Shown piece after piece: positions 5,682 to 60,281 of a stretch of DNA of 64,000 bases. The first letter of the stretch is position 1. Each line of letters opens with the position of its first letter. Source of the DNA: an uncultured Anaerolineales bacterium (lineage in GTDB: Bacteria > Chloroflexota > Anaerolineae > CG2-30-64-16). The notes under the pieces were generated by a model, which was given only the letters and a program-made list of their open reading frames with translations, did no database searches and had not been told where the DNA came from. A program made the position numbers and the translations under genes. Location of the stretch: the NCBI GenBank assembly GCA_964474695.1, contig CAYYTK010000017.1, positions 25,572 through 89,571 of the forward strand. Reading direction: 5' to 3'.

Positions 5682-5859
5682 GAAGCAGCGGGTCACGGAC
5701 CCGTCAGGAGCGCAGAGTTCCGCTTCGGATGCCTGCGCGAACATCAATATGGGTCTTCTGCCTTGGGAAACCTGATTCAATCAACAAGCGCAGATCCGCG
5801 GTACAATTCTCTACATGTGCGTGCCGAGTTCATCTCGATTCGATTAAGCAGGAGGCTTC

Positions 5860-21613: not shown

Positions 21614-21673
21614 GGGTCACTTCGTCCGATCCATAGGGGGTACAAAACGCAGTCTTTTGGACGGAGGTGTAAC

Positions 21674-33470: not shown

Positions 33471-33605
33471 GAGAGTGCGCGGCCACATCATTGACGCCGA
33501 TCGCTTAGCTGGAAGGATGTCACATTCGTGCCGGACACCCGTCGTCCCCGCACGGAGTAACTCTGCATATACAGGCTTGATCGCCTGATGCAGACGCCGT
33601 CTTGT

Positions 33606-33651
33606 GAGAGCCATCCCGAATGCCGCCAAGCAATTCGTTGGGATGGCTCTC
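33606..33651. repeat. 12-bp perfect inverted repeat GAGAGCCATCCC-22 nt-GGGATGGCTCTC between convergent genes
   Basis: Read directly from the sequence. No clear U-tract follows. It could be a bidirectional terminator or a protein-binding site. Confidence 0.35.
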
Positions 33652-33825
33652 GTCGTTTAAGCGCCACGGCGTCCGCACCTTGTTTGCTAAGGTGCAATTC
33701 AGTTGTCTGTTGCCATCTTACTTACTTTCGTGTAGGTTGTCAAATCACCTGTTTCCGCGCTTTTCCTCTCCTTCCCCCTTCGGCAGGCTTTGTTACCCCG
33801 GCCAGCCGGGCACGTAATTCATCCA

Positions 33826-38075: not shown

Positions 38076-38232
38076 GGAAATAAACAGCAAGAGAGACAAT
38101 TGCGTTTGTGTACAGGCGCTGCTTATGCTAGACTGCACAATGCAATTAACTGGCGAAGCCGACCAGGAGCGAACTGATCGGCTTCGCACCCGCCTCCTGT
38201 TTTTCGTTTCCGACCGGAGCGAAGTTGATCTC

Positions 38233-42432: not shown

Positions 42433-42453
42433 GTCGCACAAAGGAATAGCTTC

Positions 42454-42546
42454 ATGAATGATCTATTGCTGTCTATTGTTCCCGCCGTGATCGTAGGTGT
42501 GATGAGATCCCTTACTTCTTTCAAAAGTGAATTCGCTTCAACCTGA
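42454..42546 (+). CDS. 30-aa hydrophobic micro-ORF (MNDLLLSIVPAVIVGVMRSLTSFKSEFAST)
   Basis: Hand-translated from the 143-nt gap between the RM gene and the SAP-motif gene. AAGGA lies 8 nt upstream. It has one TM-like segment. Support is weak. Confidence 0.25.
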   Translation: MNDLLLSIVPAVIVGVMRSLTSFKSEFAST

Positions 42547-42575
42547 TTACAAGGCATGTTAGCGGGAAGGGAACA

Positions 42576-43379
42576 ATGTCCGATCTCGATGTCGCTCCCT
42601 ACTTTTCGCATCTCAACCCAAGTGTCGAGCAGCTAGCTCGCATCACCCACGAAATTGAAGCCCAAAATCACTGGTGGGGGGTTGGCAACAAACGTTTGAT
42701 CGATACAATTGCCATCGTATTTGCGCCGGGTGATTTGTCGCAGCTTTCTATTGAAGCATTTGAGCTACTGAGGCGATGCCAGGGCCGGGCAAAGTCATTT
42801 GATCTGAAGGGCAAGGATACTGACTACGGACAATCGTGTGATGCTTTCATCGACCGATTTCGGCAGCTAGCTGAGATGGGGTTAGTCAGAGAAGCGGACA
42901 TTCGTGCCAAACTGAAAGGGAGTCGAAGCGTAGGCGAGTTGCGGACGCTCTTGTCAGAGCAAGGTCTCGTTGCCAAGGGAAACAAAGATGATATGGTCGA
43001 ACGTCTGACCAATCACCTGGATGCCGACACCTTGCGGGATCTGACGGCCGACATAGTGCTTTACACCACCACGCCATCTGGCGATCAGGCCATCTCCACG
43101 ATCTCCAAGTTGTCTCTACAAGCGTATGCGCCCTTGTCTCAGGCCCTGCGCGCCAATGAATCGTATCTTGAAAATCAGCGCCCACCGCTGCCATCGGATA
43201 TCGAACCGTCTGAGCTTGAGCTCACGGACGAGGACCTTGAGGCCTCTCTCGACGTATTGGAGGAAGTGCTTGGCCCCGAAATGTTCTTGCAGCTGATGCT
43301 GGGACTCCCTATTGAAAGCCTCCTCCATAGACCAGAGGATTCTAGTCGGCAAGTCAACAAAGATGATTGTGCGAAATAG
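42576..43379 (+). CDS. hypothetical protein with SAP-like DNA-binding motif and acidic C-terminus
   Basis: VGELRTLLSEQGLVAKGNKDDMVERLTNHL fits the SAP helix-extended-helix consensus (L..L.V.ELR..L..RGL...G.K..L..RL). The gene is AT-richer than its flanks. Confidence 0.55.
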   Translation: MSDLDVAPYFSHLNPSVEQLARITHEIEAQNHWWGVGNKRLIDTIAIVFAPGDLSQLSIEAFELLRRCQGRAKSFDLKGKDTDYGQSCDAFIDRFRQLAEMGLVREADIRAKLKGSRSVGELRTLLSEQGLVAKGNKDDMVERLTNHLDADTLRDLTADIVLYTTTPSGDQAISTISKLSLQAYAPLSQALRANESYLENQRPPLPSDIEPSELELTDEDLEASLDVLEEVLGPEMFLQLMLGLPIESLLHRPEDSSRQVNKDDCAK

Positions 43380-43492: not shown

Positions 43493-44779
43493 ATGAGTAA
43501 GCATTCCGACCACCATTACGATGTCTTCATCAGCTACAGTCACCAGGATACAGACTGGGTCTGGCAGTACCTTCTACCGCGCCTGGAGGGCGCAGGGCTG
43601 CGCGTCTGTATCGATCGACGTGACTTTGAGATCGGCACGCCAACGCTGGTGAATATGGAGCGTGCGGTGGACCGCAGTCGGCACACCCTCCTCGTTTTGA
43701 CGCCAGCATGGGTTGAAAGCGAGTGGGCGGACCTCGAAAGCCTGCTCGGCGGCACGGGCGACCCTGCTGGCAGGCGTCGCAAGCTCTTCCCGATCATGCT
43801 CAAGGAATGCACGCCGTCGTCACGCATATCAATACTGACCTGGGCCGACTTCACACAACCTGACGAGCACGTGGATCAATTCCAGCGTCTTCTAGAGCAA
43901 CTCCGCGACTCGGTGGAACCCGCCCATCCCCCAGCCGAAGACACCTCCCCGTTTGTCGCAGGCCCGCCGATCATGCGTCCCCGCGGCTTCTTTGGTCGGG
44001 AAGGGGAAATCAGGCGCATCTTTGGCCTCCTTAGGCAGCCACCACTCCAGAACGCGGCGATCATCGGACCACGACGCAGCGGCAAGACATCCCTCCTACA
44101 GTACCTCAAAAACATCACGGCCACAGCGACAACGCAACTGCGTTCAGGTCAGCGAAGTGACTGGTTGCCGCAGCCCGAGCGCTACCGTTGGGTCTTCGTA
44201 GATTTTCAGGATCCGCGGGTAGGTACACAGGAAGGATTGCTGCGCCATCTACTGACCGGACTATGTTTGACTGTTCCGAAACCCTGCAATCTGGAGCAGT
44301 TCCTGGACATCATGTGTGGAAATCTCAACCGCCCCGCCGTGATCCTGCTGGACGAGATCGGGGCAGCCTTACAGCGTTACCCTGAGCTGGACGATACGTT
44401 CTGGGAGGGATTGCGCTCTCTGACTAGTTGCACGGGAGGGAGCAATCTCGCCTTCATTCTGGCTTCTCATATCTCTCCCATTGAGTTAGCACACAACAGT
44501 GGGCACAGCTCGCCCTTCTTCAACATCTTCGGGTACACGTCCACTCTGGGGCCGTTAGCGGAGGCCGAGGCGTGTGCTCTCATCGCGAGCTCCCCGATCC
44601 CGTTTCCGACCGAGGATGTAGCGTGGATCCTGGAGCACAGCGGGCGCTGGCCGCTGCTGCTGCAGCTCCTGTGCCGGGAACGCCTGGTAGCCCTGGAGGA
44701 GGGTGAGACCGGCATCGGTTGGCGCGAGGAGGGTCTGCGGCAGATCGCTCCCTTCGGGCATCTGTTGGAGGCAGCATGA
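43493..44779 (+). CDS. TIR - ORC/Cdc6-like (Arch_ATPase-type) AAA ATPase
   Basis: TIR: YDVFISYSHQDTDWVWQYLLPRLEGAGLRVCIDRRDF, LLVLTPAWVESEWADLESLL, LFPIMLKEC. ATPase: FFGREGEIRRI, IIGPRRSGKTSLLQYL, VILLDEIG. I start at the ATG at 43493 rather than at 43367 as in the track. Confidence 0.8.
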   Translation: MSKHSDHHYDVFISYSHQDTDWVWQYLLPRLEGAGLRVCIDRRDFEIGTPTLVNMERAVDRSRHTLLVLTPAWVESEWADLESLLGGTGDPAGRRRKLFPIMLKECTPSSRISILTWADFTQPDEHVDQFQRLLEQLRDSVEPAHPPAEDTSPFVAGPPIMRPRGFFGREGEIRRIFGLLRQPPLQNAAIIGPRRSGKTSLLQYLKNITATATTQLRSGQRSDWLPQPERYRWVFVDFQDPRVGTQEGLLRHLLTGLCLTVPKPCNLEQFLDIMCGNLNRPAVILLDEIGAALQRYPELDDTFWEGLRSLTSCTGGSNLAFILASHISPIELAHNSGHSSPFFNIFGYTSTLGPLAEAEACALIASSPIPFPTEDVAWILEHSGRWPLLLQLLCRERLVALEEGETGIGWREEGLRQIAPFGHLLEAA

Positions 44780-47550: not shown

Positions 47551-50500
47551 GTGGAACAGCAGTACACTCACGATCTATTCATCTCTTGTGCCAATGCCGA
47601 TTTGGCATGGGTCGAGGGCTTTCTCCTGCCCGCGTTAAGCTTGCCAGCGGAACGCGTAATCACCTTCAGGCAATTCGTGCCCGGCGCGAGCTTGATCGCG
47701 GAGTTCGAACGCGCGGTTCGCGACAGCCGTTACACGATCCTCGTGCTCACCCCCGCGTACCTCGCCGATGTGTGGCCGCAGTTTGCTGCGGAACTCGCCA
47801 GCTTCACAAGTGTTGCTGAACGGCAGAACCGAATCATCCCGCTCTTGCGCGAGCCTTGTGAATTACCCCTGCACATTGATTTCCGCGTGGGCTTGGATTG
47901 TACAGCGGCAGCCAACTGGGAGAGCGAAATCGGACGCGCACGCGAACTGCTTGACCAACCCGAACCAAAGGCTGAACGAATCCCCTGCCCTTACCCGGGG
48001 CTGGCGCCGTTCAACGAACATGAGGCAGAACGCTTCTTTGGCCGAGAGGATGAAATCGCCGATCTGCGGCGCCGGCTGCGCTACCACAACTTCCAACTTA
48101 TCATGGGCCCGTCAGGCTCTGGAAAGTCATCTTTGGTCTTCGCTGGCCTGGTGTCAGACCTTCGAAAACACCAGCCTGGTCAGTGGACAGCGCGGGACAT
48201 CCGACCAGGCTCAACGCCCCTCGATGCATTGAACACCGCGGTCGGTGACCTGATCAACCTGGACACGCTTCAACCATCTGGATTGCAGACACCACGCTTC
48301 CTACTGATTGTAGATCAACTCGAGGAGATCTTCGTTCAGGTTGCACGGCCTGTGCAGAGTGATTTCATCGCTGCGCTGAAGATACTCCTACAAGTTCCCA
48401 ACTGCTCTATCGTCGCCACACTGCGAGCTGACTTTTACTCTGATTTGATGGACAGCGACCTCTGGCCGATTGATCCATCCCACAGACTGGAGGTGGTTCC
48501 GCTGCGAGGCGACGCGCTGCGACGAGCCATCCAGCAACCTGCAACAGATGCCGGTGTGTACCTGGAAAGCAGCCTATTGGAGCGTTTGTTAGCTGACGTT
48601 GCTGACGAGCCCGGTTCGCTGCCTCTGCTGCAGGAAACACTGGTGCTGCTCTGGGAAGGCATGGAGCGCCGTTTCTTATCACTTGCATCCTATGCAAAAA
48701 TGGGGGATGGCAAGCGCAGCGGGCTTGCCGTCTCTATGGCCACAAAAGCCGACTCAGTACTCGGCGCGCTGTCAGCCGAACAGCGCACCATCGCCCGGCG
48801 GATTATCATCAGGCTTGTCCAGTTCGGCGTGGGACGTCCGGACACACGACGCCAGCAATTTGTCAGCGATTTGATGAGCGCCGGTGACGATGAAGAGGCG
48901 TTCAGGAACGTGCTGGAGCATCTGGTCCGGAATCGTCTGCTAACATCGAACAGTGCTGAAGAGGCCAGGGACAGGGAGGTAGATATTGCTCATGATGCGC
49001 CGATCTGGGGCTGGCCCGGACAGCAAGCATGGATGAATAAACGGCGAGACGCTGAGCTGCACCGAAGAAGATTAGAGGAACGAGCAGAAGCCTGGGAGGT
49101 CCAACGCGCTGCGCTGCTTGACTCTGTGGAGCTTGCTAACGCACGCCGCTGGTCCGAGGATTACGCTGATGAGTTGGGTTGTAGTGCGACGCTCTTGGCA
49201 ATGATAGCGACCAGCGACAAGGTCAACCGCAGGAATGCCCGGCTTCGGCTTGCGGTCGCAACTGCGATTGTTATGCTTGTCATCGGCATATTGGCAACAA
49301 TTGCGGTTACCCAGTATCAACTGAACGATCAGCAGCGCAGCGCCGCGGCCACGGCGCAAGTGCTCGCCAATGCTGAGTCACACGCTCGAACCACGGCAGA
49401 AGCCGAGGCCCATGCCCGCGCGACCGAAGTTGCCATCAGGAGCGCAGCAGAGGCTGATGCGAAGATTCGAGCACAGGAAGCCCTGGCACGGCAACTGCTG
49501 GCTCAGGCCGAATCCCTCTACGCACGCGAACCGGGGCAGTATGATTTGGCGCTGTTGCTCGGCGTTGAGTCCATGAAACGGCTGAACTCGCCTGAAGGAA
49601 GTGATTTCCTCTATCGCGGCCTGAGCCTGTTGCCGAAGGCTACACAGACCATCACTCACAATTCCGAGGTCAAGAACAGGTTACTTAGCCCGAACGGGAT
49701 GTGGCTTGCCACCAGTAAACAGGATAATACCGTAGAGATCGTCAGCGTGGAAAATAGTAAGATTGTGGCAGCGATAACACCGGACACTCCTCCCAGTTCC
49801 ATGACTTTCAGCCCAAATGGTCGCTGGCTTGCAACGCTCGGCAACCCAATGCAAGTCTGGGATGTCATCACAGCCGAGGAACAGATACGTAGTAGTTTCC
49901 ACGTCAACTGGGATCGTATGGCCTTTGACCCTACCGGTCAGTTTCTTGCAGTGTCAGAGGATGCCCAAACCAGGGTCTATGACCTCACAGCCGGCGAACT
50001 GAGTACCGAGGTGTCGAGCGCCAAAGATGTGAGGGTCCTTGCGTTTAGTCAGACCGGCCGTATGCTTGCCGCGGCAACCGACAACGGTACATACATCTGG
50101 GATGCTGCAACTGGCGCCTCTCTCGTAACCCTACCTACACCTGAAAGAACTTATCGAATCATCTTTGACCCACTCGACGAACTGCTGATCACCGCGGAAG
50201 ACAACGGCACCATTTCCTTTTGGAACATAGACTCGGGTACGGTGCTGACTCGCACTAGACAACTTGAAAGCATCAATGACCTGGTACTCAGCCCTGACGG
50301 TCAATGGCTTGCAGCCGGAAGCTATGGTGGAATGCTCGCAGCTTGGGCGTTACCAGAAGGCGCAGCGAGCATTCATGTGCCGGATAGGCCAACCCTAATT
50401 GCTATGCCAGATCCAAATTTATGGACGAATATGCTCTCCTACTACTACTCTGGGTTTGAAGTAGTCTCCTTTAACCAGAACGGCACTATGCTGGCCACAA

Positions 50501-51828
50501 TCGGTGATGATGGCGTCACGCGCGTTTGGGACACGATGACCATGCGGGAGATCGCAAGAATTACTGATGATAGCGCCATTGACGGGGTAGCCTTCGCGCC
50601 CAATGGGATCCTGTTGATAACCACCAGTCCATTCCATACCAGAAGCTGGGACATCGGACTCAAGGTTGGCCCATCCATGATCTCAAAGAAAGAAGGCTAT
50701 TTTGAGGTAACTCTACGATCTGACGGGGAGCAGTTGGCCGCCACCATTGATCAACAAGTTCGCCTGTGGTCCACACGTTCATGGGGGAACCCAAGCGTGC
50801 TATCGGAAAGCAGAAACATTGAGGCAGTTGCCTTTGACCCCGCCTCCAACAAAATAGCGGTAGCAACAGCTACAGGACTACATATCTGGGATACTGCGGC
50901 CCAAACGATCACAGCCATAATCCCCAACAGCGCGAACATCAGTCAACTTGAATTCAGCCCGGATGGTAAATGGTTAACCGGCACTCAAGATAGGACGATT
51001 CGCGTCTGGGATGCGGAACATTGGAGTCCAGCAATTCAAAACGCATGCCCGGAGCCGAATGAGTGTTGGTTTGGGACTTTCAGTCCTGATGGTCGCTGGA
51101 TGGCGGTCAGGCTTCCCGAGGATCGCATTGCTCGTCTAAGCACTGCTTCATGGCAAGTTGTGTCTTCAGTCATCGCAAAAGGTCACATCACCGGCCTCTC
51201 GTTCACTCCCTCCGGGAATGAACTGATCGCCACGGCTCTGGGTTTCGCTAGTGAGAAGGACACCACTTCTCGAGATGGCACGCTTTCGTTGCATGTATGG
51301 AAGGGAATGAACGGCGACCATATGATCCTCGATAGAACCATCGAGTACACCGTCGGGCCAGAGGGCTTTATAGAATCACAGTTCAGCCCAAATGGCCGAT
51401 GGCTGGCGCTCATTCAGGAATCCACCGTGAGAATCCTAGATCTGACCACCATGAAAGAAGTAAACACTGTCTCTCACAAAAGCGGGAGGATCTATGGACT
51501 TGCCTTCAGCCCTGATGATGAACTCATTGCAACTGCGGGAACAGACCAGATAGTGCGCGTTTGGAAGGTGAGCACCGGCCACGAAGAAGCCAGATTCTCG
51601 CTTGATGGCATGGCATGGCTGGTGGGGTTCAGTGCCGATAACCATTCGCTTCTGATCAACAATTCAACCGCTGATTGGAGCTCGGGGCGCTTGCAAGCGC
51701 ACTATTGGCGCGGCGCTGATCTGATGCGAGAGACCTGCAGCCGCCTCTGGCGAAATCTAGCTCTCGAGGAGTGGTCAACTTACTTTGCCAGTGAGCCATA
51801 TCGACGAACCTGCGATAATTTGCCGTGA
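47551..51828 (+). CDS. TIR - STAND (nSTAND/NACHT-like GPSGSGKSS) - single TM - Ala/Glu-rich segment - degenerate beta-propeller protein
   Basis: The GTG start directly follows the previous TGA. TIR: HDLFISCANADLAWVEGFLLPAL, ILVLTPAYLADVWPQFAAELASF. Then CPYPGLAPFNEHEAERFFGREDEI, IMGPSGSGKSSLVFAGL and LLIVDQLEE. TM: RLRLAVATAIVMLVIGILATIAV. Next AESHARTTAEAEAHARATE, then WD40-like blades. C-terminus: TCSRLWRNLALEEWSTYFASEPYRRTC. Confidence 0.85.
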   Translation: MEQQYTHDLFISCANADLAWVEGFLLPALSLPAERVITFRQFVPGASLIAEFERAVRDSRYTILVLTPAYLADVWPQFAAELASFTSVAERQNRIIPLLREPCELPLHIDFRVGLDCTAAANWESEIGRARELLDQPEPKAERIPCPYPGLAPFNEHEAERFFGREDEIADLRRRLRYHNFQLIMGPSGSGKSSLVFAGLVSDLRKHQPGQWTARDIRPGSTPLDALNTAVGDLINLDTLQPSGLQTPRFLLIVDQLEEIFVQVARPVQSDFIAALKILLQVPNCSIVATLRADFYSDLMDSDLWPIDPSHRLEVVPLRGDALRRAIQQPATDAGVYLESSLLERLLADVADEPGSLPLLQETLVLLWEGMERRFLSLASYAKMGDGKRSGLAVSMATKADSVLGALSAEQRTIARRIIIRLVQFGVGRPDTRRQQFVSDLMSAGDDEEAFRNVLEHLVRNRLLTSNSAEEARDREVDIAHDAPIWGWPGQQAWMNKRRDAELHRRRLEERAEAWEVQRAALLDSVELANARRWSEDYADELGCSATLLAMIATSDKVNRRNARLRLAVATAIVMLVIGILATIAVTQYQLNDQQRSAAATAQVLANAESHARTTAEAEAHARATEVAIRSAAEADAKIRAQEALARQLLAQAESLYAREPGQYDLALLLGVESMKRLNSPEGSDFLYRGLSLLPKATQTITHNSEVKNRLLSPNGMWLATSKQDNTVEIVSVENSKIVAAITPDTPPSSMTFSPNGRWLATLGNPMQVWDVITAEEQIRSSFHVNWDRMAFDPTGQFLAVSEDAQTRVYDLTAGELSTEVSSAKDVRVLAFSQTGRMLAAATDNGTYIWDAATGASLVTLPTPERTYRIIFDPLDELLITAEDNGTISFWNIDSGTVLTRTRQLESINDLVLSPDGQWLAAGSYGGMLAAWALPEGAASIHVPDRPTLIAMPDPNLWTNMLSYYYSGFEVVSFNQNGTMLATIGDDGVTRVWDTMTMREIARITDDSAIDGVAFAPNGILLITTSPFHTRSWDIGLKVGPSMISKKEGYFEVTLRSDGEQLAATIDQQVRLWSTRSWGNPSVLSESRNIEAVAFDPASNKIAVATATGLHIWDTAAQTITAIIPNSANISQLEFSPDGKWLTGTQDRTIRVWDAEHWSPAIQNACPEPNECWFGTFSPDGRWMAVRLPEDRIARLSTASWQVVSSVIAKGHITGLSFTPSGNELIATALGFASEKDTTSRDGTLSLHVWKGMNGDHMILDRTIEYTVGPEGFIESQFSPNGRWLALIQESTVRILDLTTMKEVNTVSHKSGRIYGLAFSPDDELIATAGTDQIVRVWKVSTGHEEARFSLDGMAWLVGFSADNHSLLINNSTADWSSGRLQAHYWRGADLMRETCSRLWRNLALEEWSTYFASEPYRRTCDNLP

Positions 51829-51852
51829 TGGGCCTTCCCTGAGGACTGTGCT

Positions 51853-53157
51853 ATGTCTACCCTTGCAAACTACCACGCCTTAGTCGTCGGCATCGCTGCT
51901 TACCACCATTTGGGGCCACTCCCAGCAACCGTAGCCCAGGACGCCAAAGACACCTATGCCTTACTGGTTGCGCCTGATATCTGCGCCTACCCCGAGAAAA
52001 ACGTCAAGCTCATCCTGAACGACGAAGCAACCCTTGTTCGTCTGCAACAAGAACTAACCAAACTTGCAGAACGCTGCAGCGAAGACTCGACGATTCTTAT
52101 CTACTTTTCTGGCCATGGCGGCCGTATTTCTACCGGGCCGAACGCCGGCGAGTATCTCTTACCGGTGGACACGCGGTTGAGGCGGCGCGCAGACACCGAA
52201 GACGAAGTATACGAGCCAGCGCCAGAAACGACGCTCTCCGGTGCTGAGTTCACCGCCGCGCTACAGGCGATTCCGGCGCGCAAGGTCGTCGTGGTATTCG
52301 ATTGCTGCCACAGCGGAGGGATCGGACATGTCAAGGCCGGCATCGAGCCCGAGTTCAAGGCTGGCCTGCCGGAGAGCTACTACGACAAGTTGGCTGCCGG
52401 CCGCGGCCGCGTGATCCTGGCATCGTCACGCGAGACGGAGTCCTCCTGGGTGCTGCCCGGCGACGCCAACAGCCTGTTCACCAAGCACCTGAAGGCGGGC
52501 CTGGAGGGTGGCGCGCCGGGCAAGGATGGCCTAATCCGCATCTTCGAGCTGTTCGAGTACATTCACCCGAAAGTCACCGAAGCCCGTCCCGATCAGCATC
52601 CGGTGCTCCAGGTGAAGCTGGAAGAGAATTTCCCTATCGCCCTGTACCTCGGCGGCCAGAAGGCGCCGGCGCCCCCGCCTGAGCCGACCGCGGCAGACGA
52701 CTTCCGCTACGACGCCTACATCAGTTGGGTGCGCGCGCCGGCCGACACGGCCTGGATGCGGGACAAGCTGCTGCCGCTGCTCAAAAAGGCCGGGCTGCGA
52801 GTCGCCATGACCGGTCGCGTGGAGGAGCCGGGTGTGCCCGCTGTGGTCGGCATTCAGCGGGCTGTAGAACTGGCTAAACGCACAGTTGTTGTCCTTTCGC
52901 GTGCGTACCTCGAAAGTGGCTGGGCTGCGCTGGAGAGCATCGCCGCCCAGCATCTGAGCGTCGAAGAACGACGGGCCAGGCTGCTGCCGGTTGTGATTGA
53001 CGACTCACTGCTCGATTGGGAGCGACGCATGACCAGGGACGTACCCCTCGGTCTGCGCCAGCTTACGCCGCTTGACGTGGTAGACGGGTTCTTCGGCGAG
53101 GAGAATCTAACTCGTCTACCTGAGATTCTGAAGCAGCCCATTCCTGCAACGCGCTGA
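51853..53157 (+). CDS. caspase-like peptidase (C14 family) fused to a C-terminal TIR domain
   Basis: YHALVVGIAAYHH, catalytic His in ILIYFSGHGG, catalytic Cys in VVVVFDCCHSGG. C-terminal TIR: YDAYISWVRAPADTAWMRDKLLPLLKKAGLRVAM, VVVLSRAYLESGWAALESI, LLPVVIDD. Confidence 0.85.
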   Translation: MSTLANYHALVVGIAAYHHLGPLPATVAQDAKDTYALLVAPDICAYPEKNVKLILNDEATLVRLQQELTKLAERCSEDSTILIYFSGHGGRISTGPNAGEYLLPVDTRLRRRADTEDEVYEPAPETTLSGAEFTAALQAIPARKVVVVFDCCHSGGIGHVKAGIEPEFKAGLPESYYDKLAAGRGRVILASSRETESSWVLPGDANSLFTKHLKAGLEGGAPGKDGLIRIFELFEYIHPKVTEARPDQHPVLQVKLEENFPIALYLGGQKAPAPPPEPTAADDFRYDAYISWVRAPADTAWMRDKLLPLLKKAGLRVAMTGRVEEPGVPAVVGIQRAVELAKRTVVVLSRAYLESGWAALESIAAQHLSVEERRARLLPVVIDDSLLDWERRMTRDVPLGLRQLTPLDVVDGFFGEENLTRLPEILKQPIPATR

Positions 53158-53161
53158 TCCA

Positions 53162-56100
53162 ATGAATCAACTACCTGGTCACATCCACGATCTTTTCATA
53201 TCCTATGCTCGGGCTGACCTGGGCTGGGTATACGGTTACCTACTGCCAGCTCTCGGCCTGCCACCCGATCGCGTTGTAACCGCACAGGATTTTGCGCACG
53301 GCGTCTCAGTTGTATCTGAGTTCGAGCGGGCCGTTCAAGACAGCCGCTTTACAGTGTTGGTATATAGCCCTGCATTCCCTGCCAATGAATGGACTGACTT
53401 CAGCGAACAGTTGGCCTCTCATCTGAGCGTAGAGGAGCAACGCGAACGGGTCGTGCTGCTCCTCCTGCAACCTTGTGAAGTGCCCCTCAGACTGAAGCCG
53501 CGCCTCCACTTAGATTGCACCGAACCAGCAGACTGGGAGCAGCAGGTGGCCCAGCTGCGCCAGATGTTGACGCTCCCAGAGCCCAATCCCGAGGATATCC
53601 CGTGTCCCTATCCGGGCATGGCGCCATTTCGCCAAGAGGACGCTCAGCGCTTCTTTGGGCGAGAGGATGAGATTCAGGAGTTACGCCAGCGCCTGGATGA
53701 GCAGTCGTTGATACTGGTCATGGGCCCATCCGGGTCCGGCAAATCCTCACTGTTATCCGCGGGATTGATCCCCGCGCTCGACGAACGCTGGACTTGCATC
53801 ACGCTGCGGCCGGGGCCCAAACCGATTGACACACTGCAATCAACCATTGCTGAGGTCGAAGGTACTGACGAGCCTGTCGCTGATGGAATCGCGCCTCCAA
53901 AGCAGCCAGGCAAACGCGTTCTCTTGGTGGTGGATCAACTGGAGGAGTTGTTTGTTCAGGCGACCAAGGAGGACCAGGTAGCCTTCATCGACACCATCAG
54001 CAGGCTGCACCAACGCCGGGGCTGGGCGGTGATCCTTGCCCTGCGCGCTGACTTCTTCGACGATCTCATGAACAGCAAGCTGTGGCCGATAGCGCAGCCG
54101 CATCGGATGGAACTCACCCCGCTGCGTGGACAGGCCCTCCAGGTAGCCATTCAACGACCGGCGAATGATCTGAAGGTTCACCTGGAAGCCGGCCTCGTCG
54201 AGAGACTCATCGCCGATGCCGCCGATGAACCCGGCGCGCTCCCATTGCTGCAACAAACGATGGTATTACTGTGGGAAAAACGCCAGCGCCGCCTGCTGCC
54301 GCTGAACGCCTACCGGGCCATGGGCGACGGGCAGCGAAGCGGCTTGGCCACTGCGGTCACTACCAAGGCCGATGAAGCCCTCGCTCGGCTAACACCCGAA
54401 GACCAGGTGGTCGCGCAGCGCATCCTTGTGCGGCTGGTGCAGTTCGGCGAAGGCCGACCCGATACCCGACGGCAACAAGCCATCCCCGCGATCCTCGACG
54501 CAGATGGCGATCGTGATCGGGTACTGCGCGTGGTCCAGCACCTGGCCCAGTATCGCCTGTTGACCTTGGGCGAAAAAAACGGGGAACAACAAACAGTTGA
54601 CATCGCGCATGACGTGCTGATCACGAGCTGGCCGGCCTTCGGCGATTGGCTGAAACAGTGGCGCGCCGCCGAGCTGACGCGCCGCCGGCTGCAAACGAAG
54701 GCGGAAGAGTGGGATCGCTGGGTAGCATCAAAACAACCGAACGCCGGCTTGCTAGATGCAGCGGAACTCGCTGAGGCGGAGCAGTGGCTTGGCAGCGACG
54801 AGGCTTCAACTCTGGGGAGTAGCCGGACGCTGCAAACGCTGGTCAGTGTGAGCCGAGCCGCTATCAAGAAGAGTGCGCGCATCCGTGTCGGCGTGATCGG
54901 TGCCCTGATCACACTGCTCATCGCCGTGTTGGCCGCCATCACCATTGGGCAATCCCAGCTTGCAACCCAGCGCGGCCAGGCGGCTGCCACCGCGGAGAGC
55001 CTGGCGCAAGCCGAATCCTACGCGCGCGGCACTGCCGAACGCGAGGCCATAATCCGTACGACGGCGGAAGCGAATGCCCGGCGCTCTGCGCAGGCCGAAG
55101 CCACCGCGGCCGCAGACGCCAAACAGAAGCAGATGGAGGCCGAACGCGAGGTCGTCATCCGCACCACGGCAGAGGCGAATGCCCGGCGCTCTGCGCAGGC
55201 CGAAGCAACTGCAGCAGCTAATGCAAAACTAAAACAGGCTGAAGCCGAAGCTCAATCTCGTCGTGCTCTGGCCGAAAACCTAGCCGGGCAGAGCCAACTG
55301 CTCATTCGCGTGGACAACAGCCCGGGGGATCTTGCGCTAATTCTCGCCCGCGACGCCGCATTGACAGATGGTAGCGTCAACACCGACCAGGCACTACGCT
55401 TTGCTCTCGAAAGCACTCATCGGCAATGGTCTATCCGATCTACAAGCTATCGCCACGAAGGGGCGGTGTACTCGGTGGCCTTTGATCCCTTTGGCGAGAT
55501 GGTTGTCTCATGTGGGGCCGACGGAACCATTCGCTTCTGGCGCGGAGCTGCGCTCAAACCGTTGCCCTATTTATTTGGTCATGCGGGAGGCGTAAGGTCA
55601 GTGGCCTTCTCCCCGGACGGCAAACTCATCGTCTCGGGCGGCGAAGATGGTACGGTACGACTGTGGGATGTCCTCAAAGGCGAGCAACTCGCCCAACTCG
55701 ACGGTCATGGAGGGATCGTAAACTCGGTGGCCTTCAGCCCGGATGGCGAACGCATCATCTCGGGCGGCGAAGATGGCACAGTGCGGCTGTGGGATGCCAC
55801 CAGTGGCAAGCAATTGATTCTGATTAGCAGTCAGGAGAATATGGTATATTCGGTGGCCTTCAGCCCAGATGGCAAACGCATCGCCTGGAACAGCTACGAT
55901 GGAGTGCAATTGTCGGATGCCACCAGTGGCGAACAATTGGCTGAACTCGGCAGTCTTGCCGAGTGGATGAATTCGGTGGCCTTCAGCCCGGATGGCAAGC
56001 ACATCGTCTCAAACGGTAACGATGGAATGGAATTGTCGGATGCTACCAGTGGAGAACGATTGGTCCAAATCGGCCAACATGAGTTCAGCGTGCCTTCGCT

Positions 56101-58816
56101 GGCTTTTAGTCCGGATGGCAGACGCATCGTTTCGGGGAGTGACACTGTACGATTGTGGGATTCCACCACCGGTGAGCAACTAGCCCAACTCGATGGTCAT
56201 GCGGGGAGCGTCAATTCGGTGGCCTTCTCCCCGAACGGAGAGCGTATTGTTTCGGGCGGTCAAGATGGCACGGTGCGGCTGTGGGATGCAGTAACTGGCG
56301 AGCAACTAGTTCAACCCGATGGTCATGTGGGGAGCGTCAACTCGGTGGCCTTCTCCCCAGATGGCAATCGCATCGTCTCAGGTAGTGGTCACGTCGTCGG
56401 TAGTTCAGATAACACGGTGAGGCTGTGGGATGCAGCTAGTGGCGAACAACTGGTCCAACTCGCCGGCCATGAAGAGAGCGTGACTTCAGTGGCCTTCTCC
56501 CCGGACGGCATACGCATCGTCTCGGGCAGTCTAGACAACACAGTGCGGCTGTGGGATTCCGCCAGTGGCAAGCAATTGCTCCGACTCGACGGGCATTCAG
56601 ACTGGGTACATTCGGTGGCCTTCTCCCCGAACGGCAAGCGCATCGTCTCGGGCGGCGGAGATGGCACGGTGCGGCTGTGGGATTCCACCACTGGCGAGCA
56701 ACTCGCCCAACTCGACGGCCATGTGGGGAGCGCAAGATCGGTGACCTTCAGCCCTAACGGCGAACGCATCGTCTCGGGCGGCGACACAGTGCGACTATGG
56801 GATGCCACCACTGGCGAACAGCTAACCCTACTTGAGGGTCATGAGGCGGGAGTAGCCTCGGTGGCCTTCAGCCCGGATAGCAAACGTATCGTCTCGGGTA
56901 GTTGGGATGGCACAGTGCGGCTATGGGACTCCATCAATAGCAGGCAGTTGATCCAACTCGACACTCAGGGGGGGACCGTATGGTCAGTGGACTTCAGCCC
57001 AGATGGCAGATATATCGTCTCGGGCAGTGACGACGGAGCGGTGCGGCTGTGGGATGCCACCAGTGGCCAGCAATTGGCCAAAATCACCGGGCATGCGGAG
57101 AGCGTCAATTCGGTGGCCTTCAGCCCTAACGGCGAACGCATCGTCTCGGGCGGTGACACAGTGCGCCTGTGGGATGCCATCAGTAACGACGAACTGGTCC
57201 GACTCGACGGCCATATAGGGAGCGCCAAGTCGGTGGTTTTCAGCCCGGATGGCGAACGCATTGTGTCGGGTGGTGACACGGTGCGGCTATGGGATGCCAC
57301 TAGTGGCAAGCAACTCGTCCAACTCGACGGTCATGGAGGGATCGTAAACTCGGTGGCCTTCAGCCCGGACGGCGAACGCATCATCTCGGGCGGCGAAGAT
57401 GGCACAGCGCGGCTGTGGGATGTCACCAGTGGCAAGCAATTGATCCAACTCAGCGCTCAGATGGGTTGGGTATCTGTGGTGGCTTTCTCCCCGGATGGAA
57501 GACGTATCATCTCAGGCGGCCATGATGGCAAGGTGCAGTTGTGGGATGCCACCACTGGCGAACAACTCGCCCCACTTGCCGGTCATGTGGCGAGCGTAAA
57601 GATAGCGGTCTTTTCGCCGGATGGTGAACGCATCGCCTCGGCTGGTGGCAATGACACCGGCATTGTTGCCAACTCAGTGGTGCTTTGGAATACAACGACT
57701 GGCGAACGACTGGTCCAACTCGACAGTCGTGCAGGGAGAGTATACTCGCTCGCCTTCAGCCCAAATGGCGAACGCATTGTCTCTGGCGGCGGAGATGGCA
57801 CGGTGCGGTTGTGGGATGCCGTAACTGGCGAGCAGATGGCCCAACTCGATGGTCATACAGGGAGCGTATACTCAGTAGCCTTCAGCCCGAACGGCGAACG
57901 CATCATCTCGGGAGGCGAAGATGGCACAGTGCGGCTGTGGGATACTACTAGTGGCGAACAGCTAGCCCAACTCAACGGTCATACCGGCAGGGTTTGGACA
58001 GTGACTTTCTCCCCAGATGGTGAACGCATCGTCTCGGGCGGTGAAGACGGGGTGCGGCTGTGGGATGGGACACAACGAATCCTGCTCAGGGCAATTGCAC
58101 GTATTTCGCGACCCGCACCGATTTTGACTAGCGCAGAACGTAAGCGCTTTGGCATTGGCAGAGAGGTTAAATTGCCCGACCAGGAGATGCTAAGGCCTTT
58201 GCTGGTCCGCGCCCAGGCGCTGCGGCTGGTCGAGCAAGGACGTGAACTGGCGCGCACAGGCGCCGTAGCCGAAGCTGTCGTTCATTTCTACCAGGCGTTT
58301 GCCCTCGATCCTATGCTGGCTATCGAACCCAAAACACTCGCGCAACGGGTCTTGCGTAACCAGGTACGTTCACTGCTGTTCACCGGCCACAATCAGGCTC
58401 GACGAGGAGATATGACCGGTGCCATCACCAGATTCGAGGAAGCCACGATTCTGGATCCCAGCCTAACCACTAACCCTGATGCGGCTCAAGACTGGAACGG
58501 CCTTTGCCAGGCCGGCGTACTCTGGAACCAAGCGCCCCTCGTGCTGGATGCCTGCGATACAGCAGTCAGACTGGCCCCCAATGATCGCAACACTCGTGAC
58601 AGCCGTGGCGTAGCACGGGCGTTAGCGGGAAATATTCAGGGGGCCGTCGAGGATTTCGAGCTTGCTTTGGAGCAAGCGAAAGCAAAGGGAGAGTCTGATG
58701 GCTTTATTGCCTCGCGCTCAGCTTGGGTTAAAGCGTTGCAGGAAGGTCTAGACCCAGCGAGCATCTTTGATGAGGCGACGCTTGAGAAGCTAAGGAACGA
58801 GGATTCGGATTGGTAA
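53162..58816 (+). CDS. TIR - STAND (GPSGSGKSS) - single TM - Ala/Glu-rich repeat - ~21 x WD40 - TPR protein
   Basis: TIR: HDLFISYARADLGWVYGYLLPAL, VLVYSPAFPANEWTDFSEQLAS. Then CPYPGMAPFRQEDAQRFFGREDEI, VMGPSGSGKSSLLSAGL and LLVVDQLEE. TM: ARIRVGVIGALITLLIAVLAAITIG. About 21 blades of the type GHxGSVNSVAFSPDGERIVSGGEDGTVRLWD. The C-terminus has TPR-like helices. Confidence 0.9.
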   Translation: MNQLPGHIHDLFISYARADLGWVYGYLLPALGLPPDRVVTAQDFAHGVSVVSEFERAVQDSRFTVLVYSPAFPANEWTDFSEQLASHLSVEEQRERVVLLLLQPCEVPLRLKPRLHLDCTEPADWEQQVAQLRQMLTLPEPNPEDIPCPYPGMAPFRQEDAQRFFGREDEIQELRQRLDEQSLILVMGPSGSGKSSLLSAGLIPALDERWTCITLRPGPKPIDTLQSTIAEVEGTDEPVADGIAPPKQPGKRVLLVVDQLEELFVQATKEDQVAFIDTISRLHQRRGWAVILALRADFFDDLMNSKLWPIAQPHRMELTPLRGQALQVAIQRPANDLKVHLEAGLVERLIADAADEPGALPLLQQTMVLLWEKRQRRLLPLNAYRAMGDGQRSGLATAVTTKADEALARLTPEDQVVAQRILVRLVQFGEGRPDTRRQQAIPAILDADGDRDRVLRVVQHLAQYRLLTLGEKNGEQQTVDIAHDVLITSWPAFGDWLKQWRAAELTRRRLQTKAEEWDRWVASKQPNAGLLDAAELAEAEQWLGSDEASTLGSSRTLQTLVSVSRAAIKKSARIRVGVIGALITLLIAVLAAITIGQSQLATQRGQAAATAESLAQAESYARGTAEREAIIRTTAEANARRSAQAEATAAADAKQKQMEAEREVVIRTTAEANARRSAQAEATAAANAKLKQAEAEAQSRRALAENLAGQSQLLIRVDNSPGDLALILARDAALTDGSVNTDQALRFALESTHRQWSIRSTSYRHEGAVYSVAFDPFGEMVVSCGADGTIRFWRGAALKPLPYLFGHAGGVRSVAFSPDGKLIVSGGEDGTVRLWDVLKGEQLAQLDGHGGIVNSVAFSPDGERIISGGEDGTVRLWDATSGKQLILISSQENMVYSVAFSPDGKRIAWNSYDGVQLSDATSGEQLAELGSLAEWMNSVAFSPDGKHIVSNGNDGMELSDATSGERLVQIGQHEFSVPSLAFSPDGRRIVSGSDTVRLWDSTTGEQLAQLDGHAGSVNSVAFSPNGERIVSGGQDGTVRLWDAVTGEQLVQPDGHVGSVNSVAFSPDGNRIVSGSGHVVGSSDNTVRLWDAASGEQLVQLAGHEESVTSVAFSPDGIRIVSGSLDNTVRLWDSASGKQLLRLDGHSDWVHSVAFSPNGKRIVSGGGDGTVRLWDSTTGEQLAQLDGHVGSARSVTFSPNGERIVSGGDTVRLWDATTGEQLTLLEGHEAGVASVAFSPDSKRIVSGSWDGTVRLWDSINSRQLIQLDTQGGTVWSVDFSPDGRYIVSGSDDGAVRLWDATSGQQLAKITGHAESVNSVAFSPNGERIVSGGDTVRLWDAISNDELVRLDGHIGSAKSVVFSPDGERIVSGGDTVRLWDATSGKQLVQLDGHGGIVNSVAFSPDGERIISGGEDGTARLWDVTSGKQLIQLSAQMGWVSVVAFSPDGRRIISGGHDGKVQLWDATTGEQLAPLAGHVASVKIAVFSPDGERIASAGGNDTGIVANSVVLWNTTTGERLVQLDSRAGRVYSLAFSPNGERIVSGGGDGTVRLWDAVTGEQMAQLDGHTGSVYSVAFSPNGERIISGGEDGTVRLWDTTSGEQLAQLNGHTGRVWTVTFSPDGERIVSGGEDGVRLWDGTQRILLRAIARISRPAPILTSAERKRFGIGREVKLPDQEMLRPLLVRAQALRLVEQGRELARTGAVAEAVVHFYQAFALDPMLAIEPKTLAQRVLRNQVRSLLFTGHNQARRGDMTGAITRFEEATILDPSLTTNPDAAQDWNGLCQAGVLWNQAPLVLDACDTAVRLAPNDRNTRDSRGVARALAGNIQGAVEDFELALEQAKAKGESDGFIASRSAWVKALQEGLDPASIFDEATLEKLRNEDSDW
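55034..55243 (+). repeat. 2 x 105-nt in-frame tandem repeat (AEREAIIRTTAEANARRSAQAEATAAADAKQKQME / AEREVVIRTTAEANARRSAQAEATAAANAKLKQAE)
   Basis: Read from the DNA. A 32-nt identical core lies at 55070-55101 and 55175-55206. Confidence 0.85.
55449..58065 (+). repeat. coding tandem array of ~21 WD40 blades (126-nt and shortened 120-nt units) with near-identical distant copies
   Basis: Periodic SVAFSP(D/N)GERIVSGG units. 55693-55818 and 57319-57444 differ at only 3 of 126 nt (hand alignment). Confidence 0.9.
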
Positions 58817-60242: not shown

Positions 60243-60281
60243 GCACCTCTATCCGGTGTTGCGACAGCGGAGTGTGAAGAA

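What the first reader, a model, noticed from the sequence alone, without database searches (positions are those of the whole stretch)
43493..58816. Translationally coupled five-gene TIR/caspase/STAND operon (about 15 kb)
**Seen.** Five + strand genes sit with minimal or overlapping junctions:
- ATGA overlap at 44776;
- TGA directly followed by GTG at 47548-47553;
- a 24-nt gap before 51853;
- a 4-nt gap before 53162.

Their order is TIR-AAA ATPase, glycine-zipper membrane AAA ATPase, TIR-STAND-TM-propeller, caspase-TIR, and TIR-STAND-TM-WD40x21-TPR. The two STAND giants are clear paralogs across the TIR and NTPase regions. Both have HDLFIS, CPYPG(L/M)APF....A(E/Q)RFFGREDEI and (I/V)MGPSGSGKSSL. 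They flank the caspase-TIR gene.

**Established.** TIR, caspase-like and STAND/WD40 modules are recurrent in the NTP-dependent conflict systems of multicellular bacteria that comparative genomics has predicted.

**Inference.** The operon looks like two sensors, a shared protease/NADase effector and a membrane effector. As far as I know, this exact five-gene arrangement has not been tested experimentally.
Basis: partly seen in the sequence, partly recalled or inferred. Interest (0 to 1): 0.7.

Follow-up and report, generated by a model that had tools for sequence, protein, structure and literature searches.

The report
Caspase-TIR hub with membrane TIR-STAND sensors
Five tightly packed genes are really there, but they are two separately conserved modules placed side by side: a widespread, untested pair in which a caspase fused to a TIR domain sits next to membrane-spanning TIR-NTPase-WD40 sensors, and an unrelated two-ATPase membrane signalling pair.

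Summary
All five + strand genes, all four junctions and nearly all domain calls are correct.

The reading as one five-gene system is only partly supported. Comparative genomics splits the locus in two.

**Module B (g3, g4, g5).**
- The caspase-TIR gene lies near a TIR-headed sensor gene in 25 of 28 loci from at least six phyla.
- The sensors vary: TIR-nSTAND1-TM-WD40 or FGE-sulfatase, TIR-NB-ARC-TPR or WD40, and TIR-propeller.
- None of these loci carries g1 or g2.

**Module A (g1, g2).**
- A g1-type ATPase gene is followed by a g2-type membrane ATPase gene in 41 of 55 loci.
- The N-terminal domain of the first gene varies: BTAD, HTH, kinase or TIR.
- No caspase gene is nearby.
- So g2 is a partner of g1, not a shown effector of the caspase system.

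**Residues and topology.**
- The caspase His/Cys dyad is invariant (58/58).
- The canonical TIR Glu is present in g1 and g4. It is absent in 139 of 140 TIR-nSTAND1 sensors, which carry an acid one position later.
- A conserved TM helix with a positive N-side follows nSTAND1. This predicts WD40 outside the cell.

**Best model.** TIR-TIR recruitment of the caspase-TIR hub onto oligomerised sensors. I rate it a new variant of the predicted adaptor-coupled STAND conflict systems. It is untested.

The parts
43493..44779 (+). g1: TIR (aa 9-134) + g1-type P-loop NTPase (Walker A GPRRSGKTS, Walker B LLDE) + short helical C-terminus. This is the first gene of module A. The canonical TIR Glu is present (SEWADLE).
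   Evidence: Pfam TIR_2 9.6e-24, AAA_22 8.8e-7. Glu column. Homologues with BTAD, HTH, kinase or TIR N-termini.
44776..47550 (+). g2: membrane NTPase, the second gene of module A. It has a conserved N-terminal 60 aa and a variable Gly-rich bundle of about 10 helices (aa 61-381). These are followed by a conserved helical middle domain (aa 394-556) and a P-loop NTPase with a winged-helix part (aa 580-923).
   Evidence: Hydropathy. AAA_22 1.2e-8 and weak nSTAND1. AF2 pLDDT 83.2. Foldseek matches to archaeal ATPases 2qen and 2fna, RuvB, ORC and RPP1. At least 360 homologues at 50-60% identity in Chloroflexota. A g2-type gene follows a g1-type ATPase gene in 41 of 55 loci.
47551..51828 (+). g3: sensor 1. 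TIR (aa 10-124; the canonical Glu position is Ala, with Glu two residues later), nSTAND1 NTPase (aa 147-518), a single TM helix (aa 568-586), an Ala/Glu-rich stalk, and degenerate WD40/beta-propellers (aa ~700-1370).
   Evidence: Pfam. TM helix and charge bias. TIR alignment.
49252..49308 (+). TM helix of g3 (AVATAIVMLVIGILATIAV). There are 5 K/R in the 15 aa before it and 1 in the 15 aa after.
   Evidence: Kyte-Doolittle 2.71.
51853..53157 (+). g4: the caspase-TIR hub. Peptidase_C14 domain (aa 8-260) with His88 and Cys152, a low-confidence loop at aa 163-182, a linker at aa 272-282, and a TIR (aa 286-410) with Glu361.
   Evidence: Pfam. NCBIfam caspase_w_EACC1, 108 bits, below the 140 cut-off. 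Dyad aligned to AtMC4. His and Cys 58/58; Glu361 is E50/Q7/D1. AF2 pLDDT 80.3; Foldseek matches to GSU0716, MALT1 and metacaspases, and to TLR1 and MyD88 TIRs.
53162..58816 (+). g5: sensor 2. TIR (aa 12-132; the canonical position is Ser, with Glu next), nSTAND1 (aa 149-519), a TM helix (aa 577-595), a repeat-containing Ala/Glu stalk (aa 596-760), 21 WD40 units (aa ~768-1657) and a TPR-like C-terminus (aa ~1790-1840).
   Evidence: Pfam. TM helix. TRF 126-nt period x16.2 and 105-nt x2.1. Repeat alignment, 58% mean identity.
54890..54946 (+). TM helix of g5 (GVIGALITLLIAVLAAITI). There are 5 K/R before it and 1 after.
   Evidence: Kyte-Doolittle 2.69.

Best explanation
The 15.3-kb stretch is a juxtaposition of two independently conserved modules inside a large conflict island.

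**Module B (g3, g4, g5)** is a TIR-coupled caspase system.
- g3 and g5 are membrane-spanning sensors. TIR and the nSTAND1 NTPase sit in the cytoplasm. One TM helix follows, then a stalk and WD40 propellers that are predicted to lie outside the membrane.
- Ligand binding to the WD40 part, together with NTP, is inferred to drive nSTAND1 oligomerisation. This would cluster the N-terminal TIR domains.
- The clustered TIRs are inferred to recruit the separately encoded caspase-TIR protein (g4) through TIR-TIR contacts. Here TIR plays the part that 'effector-associated domains' or CARD/Death domains play in related systems.
- Induced proximity would then activate the caspase (His88/Cys152). It may also activate the Glu361-bearing TIR as an NADase.
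- The inferred outcome is proteolysis and/or NAD+ loss, with growth arrest or death of the affected cell in the filament.

**Module A (g1, g2)** is a separate two-NTPase signalling pair.
- g2 is a polytopic membrane NTPase.
- g1 is a soluble NTPase of a related type. Its N-terminal output domain is exchangeable across genomes and is a Glu-bearing TIR here.
- g1 may act on its own. Because its TIR is of the same subtype as partner TIRs in other caspase-TIR loci, it may instead feed into the same hub.

**Shown:** gene structure, domains, residues and conserved linkage.
**Inferred:** topology, TIR-TIR recruitment, the mode of activation and the biological outcome.
For: **Linkage of caspase-TIR to TIR-headed sensors.**
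- 25 of 28 loci with a full caspase-TIR gene have a TIR-headed sensor gene in the sequence held. The taxa are Chloroflexota, Cyanobacteria, Actinomycetota, Thiothrix/Beggiatoa-type Gammaproteobacteria, a deltaproteobacterium and KSB1.
- From the sensor side, 2 of 3 loci have a caspase-TIR gene within 1.2 kb. One of them is Frankia.

**The hub is constant while sensors vary.**
- Sensor types seen: nSTAND1-TM-WD40, nSTAND1-TM-FGE-sulfatase, NB-ARC-TPR, NB-ARC-WD40 and a Sortilin-type propeller.
- This is the pattern of the adaptor ('EAD') principle of Kaur et al. (PMC7159879, PMC8195603).

**Catalytic residues.**
- Caspase His and Cys are 58/58. The TIR Glu of the hub is only 50/58, with 7 Gln.
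- So protease activity looks like the constant output, and TIR catalysis may be dispensable in some members.
- Sensor TIRs lack Glu at the canonical column in 0/20 and 1/120 cases.

**Similarity to solved structures.** The closest solved TIRs, by sequence and by fold, are scaffold-type TLR1/2/6 and MyD88. The caspase part resembles MALT1, a paracaspase; that MALT1 is activated by dimerisation is my own knowledge, not a tool result.

**Topology.** A TM helix follows nSTAND1 in 93 of 106 homologues. The mean K/R count in 15 aa is 4.0 on the N-side against 2.6 on the C-side (N>C in 62, N<C in 17).

**Independence of module A.**
Against: - No experiment and no complex prediction supports TIR-TIR binding.
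- Sensor TIRs keep a conserved acid one position after the canonical Glu (E67/D23 of 120). They may still be enzymes, and the one-residue register question is unresolved.
- Partner TIRs of the non-nSTAND1 type mostly keep the Glu (6/8). The 'dead scaffold' idea is therefore not general.
- The outside location of WD40 rests only on hydropathy and the positive-inside rule. Several homologues show no charge bias.
- Export of about 840-1290 aa of propeller has no direct support.
- Three loci lack a TIR partner in the sequence available.
- The zero-nucleotide g2/g3 junction suggests co-expression of the two modules here, so functional coupling of A and B in this organism cannot be excluded.
Confidence: 0.55

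Rival explanations
1. Thoeris-like small-molecule signalling. A TIR in the locus (g1, or the sensor TIRs using the displaced acid) makes an NAD-derived messenger after sensing. The messenger then activates the caspase-TIR protein, as N7-cADPR activates the caspase-like effector of type IV Thoeris.
For: - TIR plus a caspase-like protease is an experimentally shown signalling pair (bioRxiv 10.1101/2024.10.24.620036).
- g1 has the canonical Glu.
- Sensor TIRs keep a conserved acid at +1.
Against: [quoted passage not shown]
- Sensor TIRs lack the canonical Glu.
- g1 is absent from all other caspase-TIR loci.
- The shared-domain pattern with many sensor types fits homotypic coupling better.
Confidence: 0.15
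2. One reading: one integrated five-gene system. g3 and g5 sense, g4 is the protease/NADase effector, and g2 (with g1) is a membrane-damaging effector arm triggered by the same signal.
For: - Tight junctions, including TGA|GTG between g2 and g3.
- The same order on independent contigs of this organism.
- The g1 TIR is 48-50% identical to partner TIRs of other caspase-TIR loci.
- g2 has a Gly-rich helical membrane domain at the N-terminal 'effector' position.
Against: - No other genome examined joins the two modules: 30 caspase-TIR loci and about 65 g1/g2 loci from other organisms.
- The g1-type partner usually carries BTAD, HTH or kinase outputs. This points to signal transduction rather than killing.
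- g2-type genes often sit in housekeeping contexts.
Confidence: 0.15
3. The genes are not anti-phage. The membrane TIR-STAND-WD40 receptors sense extracellular or neighbour-cell cues such as kin or allorecognition, developmental signals or envelope damage. They trigger caspase-dependent programmed death within a filament, like fungal HET/NWD incompatibility genes.
For: - The WD40 part is predicted to be extracytoplasmic.
- The 21 g5 repeats are 58% identical to each other, with variability confined to a few positions, as in fungal NWD genes (the comparison with fungal genes is from my own knowledge).
- The taxa are nearly all filamentous or multicellular.
Against: - The locus lies in an island with a type IIG restriction-modification/DrmMI-like gene, DUF1156/DUF499, HerA and a serine recombinase. 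This is typical of mobile defence islands.
- No data exist on ligands.
- This rival concerns the trigger. It is compatible with the proposed mechanism.
Confidence: 0.2

Closest known systems
Adaptor (EAD)-coupled STAND/nSTAND1 conflict systems of multicellular bacteria (Kaur, Burroughs, Iyer, Aravind 2020, 2021; PMC7159879, PMC8195603); computational predictions
   Same: - An nSTAND1 NTPase with an N-terminal coupling domain and a C-terminal repeat or FGE-sulfatase sensor.
- A neighbouring gene that fuses the same N-terminal domain to a peptidase.
- Confinement to filamentous or multicellular taxa.
- A variable sensor with a constant effector.
   Different: - The shared domain here is TIR. Those papers treat TIR as an enzymatic effector and do not list it as an adaptor.
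- I did not find the caspase-TIR + TIR-STAND pair, the Glu dichotomy or the TM topology in the texts searched.
Type IV Thoeris (Rousset et al., bioRxiv 10.1101/2024.10.24.620036; Science 2025)
   Same: - A TIR domain and a caspase-like protease in one defence operon.
- A catalytic Cys and a TIR Glu are both present.
   Different: - In type IV Thoeris the TIR protein and the caspase protein are separate, and a diffusible N7-cADPR signal connects them.
[quoted passage not shown]
- It has no STAND NTPase, no WD40 and no TM helix.
Apaf-1 apoptosome and bacterial Apaf-1-like caspase-STAND-WD40 proteins (PMC13581612)
   Same: - A STAND NTPase with a WD40 propeller sensor that controls a caspase-family protease by oligomerisation.
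   Different: - The NTPase clade here is nSTAND1, not NB-ARC.
- The caspase is a separate protein joined through TIR, not through CARD or a direct fusion.
- A TM helix separates the NTPase from WD40.
Animal Toll-like receptor / MyD88 signalling and the MALT1 CBM signalosome (own knowledge)
   Same: - A repeat ectodomain, one TM helix and a cytoplasmic TIR.
- The closest solved TIR sequences and folds are TLR1/2/6 and MyD88.
- The caspase part resembles the paracaspase MALT1, which is activated by recruitment-driven dimerisation.
   Different: - The domain order is reversed (TIR is N-terminal).
- The ectodomain is WD40, not LRR.
- An NTPase switch is inserted.
- There is no evidence of common descent of the whole architecture.
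EACC1-caspase two-gene system (Kaur 2020, System 4)
   Same: - An N-terminal caspase of the EACC1-associated type is the best NCBIfam match.
- The caspase is followed by a variable C-terminal domain.
- There is a link to the membrane.
   Different: - There is no EACC1 gene. Only 24 nt separate g3 and g4.
- The score of 108 is below the 140 cut-off.

Membership tests
nSTAND1 NTPases (Pfam PF20703) | Match to the family model above the curated cut-off, with Walker A and Walker B motifs | tested here: met
   g3 scores 306.8 bits and g5 330 bits against a cut-off of 27.1. GPSGSGKSS and hhhhDQLEE motifs are visible.
Caspase/metacaspase fold (Peptidase_C14) | A catalytic His-Cys dyad in the SGHG and DxCHSG motifs | tested here: met
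   His88 and Cys152 align to the AtMC4 motifs. They are invariant in 58 of 58 family members. Foldseek matches MALT1 and metacaspases at E about 1e-10.
Enzymatic TIR (NADase) | A Glu at the canonical catalytic position (WxxxE at the start of helix C) | tested here: met
   This row covers g1 (SEWADLE) and g4 (SGWAALE, Glu361). Enzyme activity itself was not tested.
Enzymatic TIR (NADase), applied to sensors g3 and g5 | A Glu at the canonical catalytic position | tested here: inconclusive
   The canonical column is Ala in g3 and Ser in g5. It is non-Glu in 20/20 and 119/120 TIR-nSTAND1 proteins, but a conserved acid follows at +1 (E67/D23 of 120). The register cannot be settled without a structure.
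Adaptor (EAD)-coupled STAND conflict systems | The same N-terminal domain on the STAND sensor and on a neighbouring effector gene. Copies occur in conserved neighbourhoods, with a variable sensor and a constant effector. | tested here: met
   25 of 28 loci. Sensor diversity. Reciprocal check. TIR is not one of the published EADs, so this is an extension of the class.
Adaptor (EAD)-coupled STAND conflict systems | Physical homotypic interaction of the shared domain | not testable with these tools
   No multimer prediction or binding assay was available.
Type IV Thoeris | A stand-alone TIR protein plus a caspase-like effector with a C-terminal signal-binding domain, and no NTPase | tested here: not met
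   In g4 the caspase is fused to a TIR, and the partners are STAND NTPases.
Type IV Thoeris | N7-cADPR as the messenger | not testable with these tools
   This needs metabolite analysis.
EACC1-caspase two-gene system | A 5' gene encoding the single-TM EACC1 domain, and a caspase above the NCBIfam cut-off | tested here: not met
   Only 24 nt lie between g3 and g4. NF047832 scores 108 bits, below 140.
Avs/AVAST antiviral STAND | A match to Avs family models | tested here: not met
   The only hit is Avs4 at E 0.002 and 15 bits against a cut-off of 1500. PADLOC gives no Avs hit.
Single operon (co-transcription of g1-g5) | One transcript with no internal promoter or terminator | not testable with these tools
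   Consensus scans are at chance level and uninformative. The junction geometry is compatible with one transcript.

The most novel reading that the evidence does not exclude
Bacteria have transmembrane TIR receptors that signal in the animal manner. An outside repeat domain (WD40 or FGE-sulfatase) senses a cue and an NTPase switch oligomerises. A TIR whose catalytic competence is unsettled then acts as a scaffold to recruit a TIR-tagged caspase. This would be scaffold-type TIR-TIR signalling to a death protease in prokaryotes. It would show that the adaptor use of TIR, thought of as an animal speciality, is widespread in filamentous bacteria, and that some bacterial STAND receptors look outward rather than into the cytoplasm.
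Probability: 0.3. Interest if true: 0.85.

Novelty: new variant of a known kind. Interest (0 to 1): 0.6.

Why it matters
**Size of the families.** The caspase-TIR family has at least 1084 homologues and its TIR-nSTAND1 partners at least 1724. Both occur across filamentous bacteria. I found no experimental study of either.

**What it would show if the TIR-TIR recruitment model is right.**
- It would be a bacterial case of TIR acting as a protein-protein adaptor to a caspase. That would link the enzymatic bacterial and plant view of TIR with the scaffold view from animal TLR signalling.
- It would give a tractable system for asking how apoptosome- or Myddosome-like assemblies arose.

**Topology.** The predicted outward-facing WD40 or FGE-sulfatase sensors would extend bacterial STAND immunity from cytoplasmic to surface sensing.

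**Annotation.** The g1/g2 pair is its own widespread membrane signalling module. It should not be counted as part of the caspase system.

Tried and rejected
1. I first concluded from the precomputed Pfam labels that g2 homologues usually stand alone. BLAST of all locus ORFs showed that nearly all are preceded by a g1-type ATPase with a different N-terminus. I corrected this in the notebook.
2. I considered calling the sensor TIRs catalytically dead. The 120-sequence alignment shows a conserved acid at +1, so I downgraded this to inconclusive.
3. PADLOC gave only generic hits (caspase, PDC-S66, HEAT-ARM_XIII through WD40) and no named system.
4. Promoter and terminator scans were at chance level.
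5. The Foldseek search with the whole g2 model was dominated by the ATPase part. It gave no match for the membrane domain. Pfam finds nothing in g2 aa 1-570 even at E<=1.
6. Cluster look-ups and contig look-ups did not reveal the source organism. Only similarity places it in Chloroflexota (Anaerolineae-like).
7. I found no clean correlation between caspase-TIR TIR subtypes and partner sensor types (by eye), and did not pursue it.
8. Literature searches found no description of the caspase-TIR + TIR-STAND pairing. A 2012 survey catalogued TIR among the domains found with bacterial metacaspases (PMC3501461).
Full report
**1. The observation**

ORF listing and translation confirm five + strand genes with exactly the junctions described.

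| Gene | Coordinates | Length |
|---|---|---|
| g1 | 43493-44779 | 428 aa |
| g2 | 44776-47550 | 924 aa |
| g3 | 47551 (GTG)-51828 | 1425 aa |
| g4 | 51853-53157 | 434 aa |
| g5 | 53162-58816 | 1884 aa |

- The junctions are an ATGA overlap, TGA followed at once by GTG, a 24-nt gap and a 4-nt gap.
- Shine-Dalgarno-like motifs precede g1 to g4. g5 has none, which fits re-initiation after the g4 stop.
- Consensus scans for promoters and terminators are at chance level and show nothing at the junctions. Co-transcription is therefore plausible but unproven.

**2. Domains**

- g1 is TIR_2 plus a P-loop NTPase.
- g2 has a Gly-rich hydrophobic region followed by AAA_22.
- g3 and g5 are TIR_2, nSTAND1 (E 4e-91 and 4e-98), one strongly hydrophobic helix, then WD40.
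- g4 is Peptidase_C14 plus TIR_2.
- g5 has 21 WD40 units and a weak TPR match at its end.
- g3 and g5 align along their whole length, 34% identical by BLASTP and visibly more conserved over TIR and nSTAND1.
- All four NTPases have Walker A and B motifs (read).

**3. Surroundings**

The whole window is a conflict island. It holds:
- DUF1156/DUF499 genes;
- three further TIR proteins;
- other WD40 giants;
- RyR/TrkA and RelA_SpoT-SLOG-RyR proteins;
- a HerA-like ATPase;
- a serine recombinase;
- a type IIG restriction-modification or DrmMI-like gene directly upstream;
- a TM-NB-ARC gene with TPR genes downstream.

**4. Gene order elsewhere: two modules**

*Searching with g4.* A scan of one genome per species returned 30 loci with homologues at 41-73% identity. 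The taxa were:
- Chloroflexota;
- filamentous Cyanobacteria;
- Actinomycetota;
- Thiothrix and Halobeggiatoa;
- a deltaproteobacterium;
- KSB1.

BLAST of all ORFs in these loci against the window's domains gave the following.
- The caspase-TIR gene lies next to or near a TIR-headed gene in 25 of 28 loci with a full-length copy.
- None of the loci holds a g1-type ATPase or a g2 homologue.
- The partners differ widely: TIR-nSTAND1-TM-WD40, TIR-nSTAND1-TM-FGE-sulfatase, TIR-NB-ARC-TPR, TIR-NB-ARC-WD40, TIR-WD40 and TIR-Sortilin-type propeller.
- Versions with several sensors recur (L001, L013, L116).
- Tight or overlapping junctions between the two genes recur (L118; L018 and L027).
- Starting from the sensor side, two of three TIR-nSTAND1 genes on long contigs have a caspase-TIR gene within 1.2 kb. 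One of these is in Frankia.

*Searching with g2 and g1.*
- g2 has at least 360 full-length homologues at 50-60% identity, all named ones from Chloroflexota.
- A metagenome scan with g1 gave 77 loci. In most, only the ATPase part (aa ~150-428) is conserved.
- A g2-type gene follows a g1-type ATPase gene within 1.5 kb in 41 of 55 loci with room. The junction is often a 4-nt overlap.
- The N-terminal domain of the first gene is BTAD (4 of 10 sampled), a Cro/C1-type HTH, a protein kinase, TCAD9-kinase, unknown, or TIR.
- The surrounding genes are often housekeeping genes.
- No caspase-TIR gene lies in any of these loci, apart from contigs of the window's own organism.

*Conclusion.* The five-gene order is private to this organism. 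It is built from module A (g1, g2) and module B (g3, g4, g5).

**5. Catalytic residues**

- *Caspase.* His88 and Cys152 align to the SGHG and DxCHSG motifs of Arabidopsis metacaspase 4. They are invariant in 58 family members.
- *Hub TIR.* The canonical Glu is present in g4 (Glu361). Across the family it is E in 50, Q in 7 and D in 1 of 58.
- *g1 TIR.* The Glu is present in g1 and in all six TIR-type module A proteins.
- *Sensor TIRs.* In TIR-nSTAND1 sensors the same column is never Glu in the 20 partner proteins and is Glu in only 1 of 120 closest homologues. The next position is E or D in 90 of 120.
- *Register.* Hydrophobic register and flanking anchors favour a true replacement in the cyanobacterial sequences. 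A one-residue bulge that preserves catalysis cannot be excluded, so I score this as inconclusive.
- *Other partners.* Partner TIRs of other sensor types mostly keep the Glu (6 of 8).

**6. Structure**

- The g4 model has pLDDT 80.3. It shows a caspase fold with a disordered loop at aa 163-182, a linker, and a TIR fold.
- Its nearest solved structures are GSU0716, the MALT1 paracaspase and metacaspases for the first domain, and TLR1 and MyD88 TIRs for the second.
- By sequence, too, the nearest solved TIRs of g3 and g4 are animal TLR1/2/6/10/15, then MAL and MyD88.
- The g2 model has pLDDT 83.2. It shows about ten long helices (aa 61-381), a helical middle domain, and an NTPase with a winged-helix part.
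- The NTPase part resembles archaeal ATPases 2qen and 2fna, RuvB, ORC and the NLR RPP1. The membrane domain has no match.
- In the family alignment the membrane region is the variable part, while the middle and NTPase parts are highly conserved.

**7. Topology**

- A single helix (Kyte-Doolittle 2.7) follows nSTAND1 in g3 and g5. The same feature occurs in most partner proteins of other phyla and in 93 of 106 close homologues.
- There are more K/R on the N-side: mean 4.0 against 2.6, with N>C in 62 and N<C in 17.
- By the positive-inside rule, TIR and the NTPase are cytoplasmic, and the stalk and sensor are outside. This is an inference.
- Two other genes in the window (11032-15132 and 15254-19093) have TIR, the same kind of TM helix and stalk, and WD40, with no NTPase at all. 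So the TIR-TM-WD40 arrangement is a recurring unit here.

**8. Mechanism**

The pattern is one constant effector gene that shares its non-protease domain with the N-terminus of many different neighbouring sensors. This is the signature that Kaur et al. used to define adaptor domains, the 'EAD principle' (PMC7159879, PMC8195603).

I therefore propose the following.
- TIR serves as the coupling domain.
- Sensor oligomerisation clusters TIRs.
- These recruit caspase-TIR.
- Induced proximity activates the protease and perhaps the hub's NADase.

The protease residues are invariant while the hub's TIR Glu is sometimes Gln. This fits a model in which proteolysis is the essential output.

For module A, the exchangeable output domain on g1-type proteins and the constant membrane partner suggest a signalling pair, with g2 as the membrane-embedded component. 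Whether g2 senses or executes is open. Here the output is a Glu-bearing TIR whose closest non-module-A relatives are partner TIRs of other caspase-TIR loci, at 48-50% identity. A link to the hub in this organism is possible but unsupported elsewhere.

**9. Comparison with known systems**

- nSTAND1 membership is met.
- The locus fits the class of adaptor-coupled STAND systems, extended to TIR.
- It is not type IV Thoeris. That system has separate TIR and caspase proteins, a diffusible N7-cADPR signal and no NTPase.
- It is not an EACC1 system. There is no EACC1 gene and the score is sub-threshold.
- It is not an Avs family member.
- It works most like an apoptosome or a TLR-MyD88 assembly, without being a member of either.

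**10. Verdict**

- The core (g3-g5) is a new variant of a predicted kind of system. It is widespread and untested.
- The g1/g2 pair is a separate module.
- Interest is moderate to high, because the model makes the question of adaptor-type TIR signalling in bacteria directly testable. All mechanistic steps remain inferences.

Noticed in passing
window 11032-15132 and 15254-19093 (+): Two giant proteins built as TIR (canonical Glu present: SPWVNREIE and SQWVNREVE), linker, one strong TM helix (aa 189-207 and 215-233), an Ala/Glu stalk and a WD40 array, with no NTPase. This is a Toll-receptor-like layout. The C-terminus of the first is 41% identical to the TPR-like end of g5.
   Followed up: partly
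window 9991-10698 (+): A small stand-alone TIR_2 protein (235 aa, E 1.4e-13) lies just upstream of the TIR-TM-WD40 genes. With it, the window holds seven TIR proteins.
   Followed up: no
window 2754-9915 (+): A DUF1156 protein (975 aa) and a DUF499 protein (945 aa) lie close together. This may be another defence module.
   Followed up: no
window 19244-24241 (+): One protein has two TM helices, TrkA_N and RyR domains. The next has RelA_SpoT, a prokaryotic SLOG (LSDAT) domain and a RyR domain. This looks like a nucleotide-signalling pair.
   Followed up: no
window 31665-36207: A HerA-like ATPase (+ strand) lies next to a large serine recombinase (- strand, 793 aa). This suggests the island is or was mobile.
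   Followed up: no
window 38065-43379 (+): A 1455-aa type IIG restriction-modification or DrmMI-like enzyme (PADLOC DrmMI 5.9e-85) is followed by a 267-aa SAP-domain protein directly upstream of g1. The SAP gene travels with g1 on contigs L031 and L032.
   Followed up: partly
window 58938-63049 (+): Downstream of g5 lies a protein with two N-terminal TM helices and an NB-ARC NTPase (434 aa). Two TPR proteins follow. This looks like a STAND receptor split over separate genes.
   Followed up: no
window 55034-55249 and 55577-58066: There is a 105-nt tandem repeat (2.1 copies, 80% matches) inside the g5 stalk. The WD40 array has a 126-nt period (16.2 copies). The 21 protein units are 58% identical on average, and variation is confined to a few positions.
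   Followed up: partly
L123 10526-11143; L125 10513-11289; L124 5936-6391: A small gene without a Pfam match (151-258 aa) sits directly after the TIR-nSTAND1 sensor gene in three unrelated loci. It may be an accessory component. It is absent from the window.
   Followed up: no
L008 7598-9985; L016 7814-9934: A second caspase or CHAT protein lies directly upstream of the caspase-TIR gene in two loci. L016 and L003 also carry peptidoglycan-binding or LysM proteins nearby.
   Followed up: no
L033 6672-9989: A module A first gene carries TCAD9 (a domain named from the ternary conflict systems) plus a protein kinase before the g1-type ATPase. This links module A to the conflict-system domain pool.
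   Followed up: no
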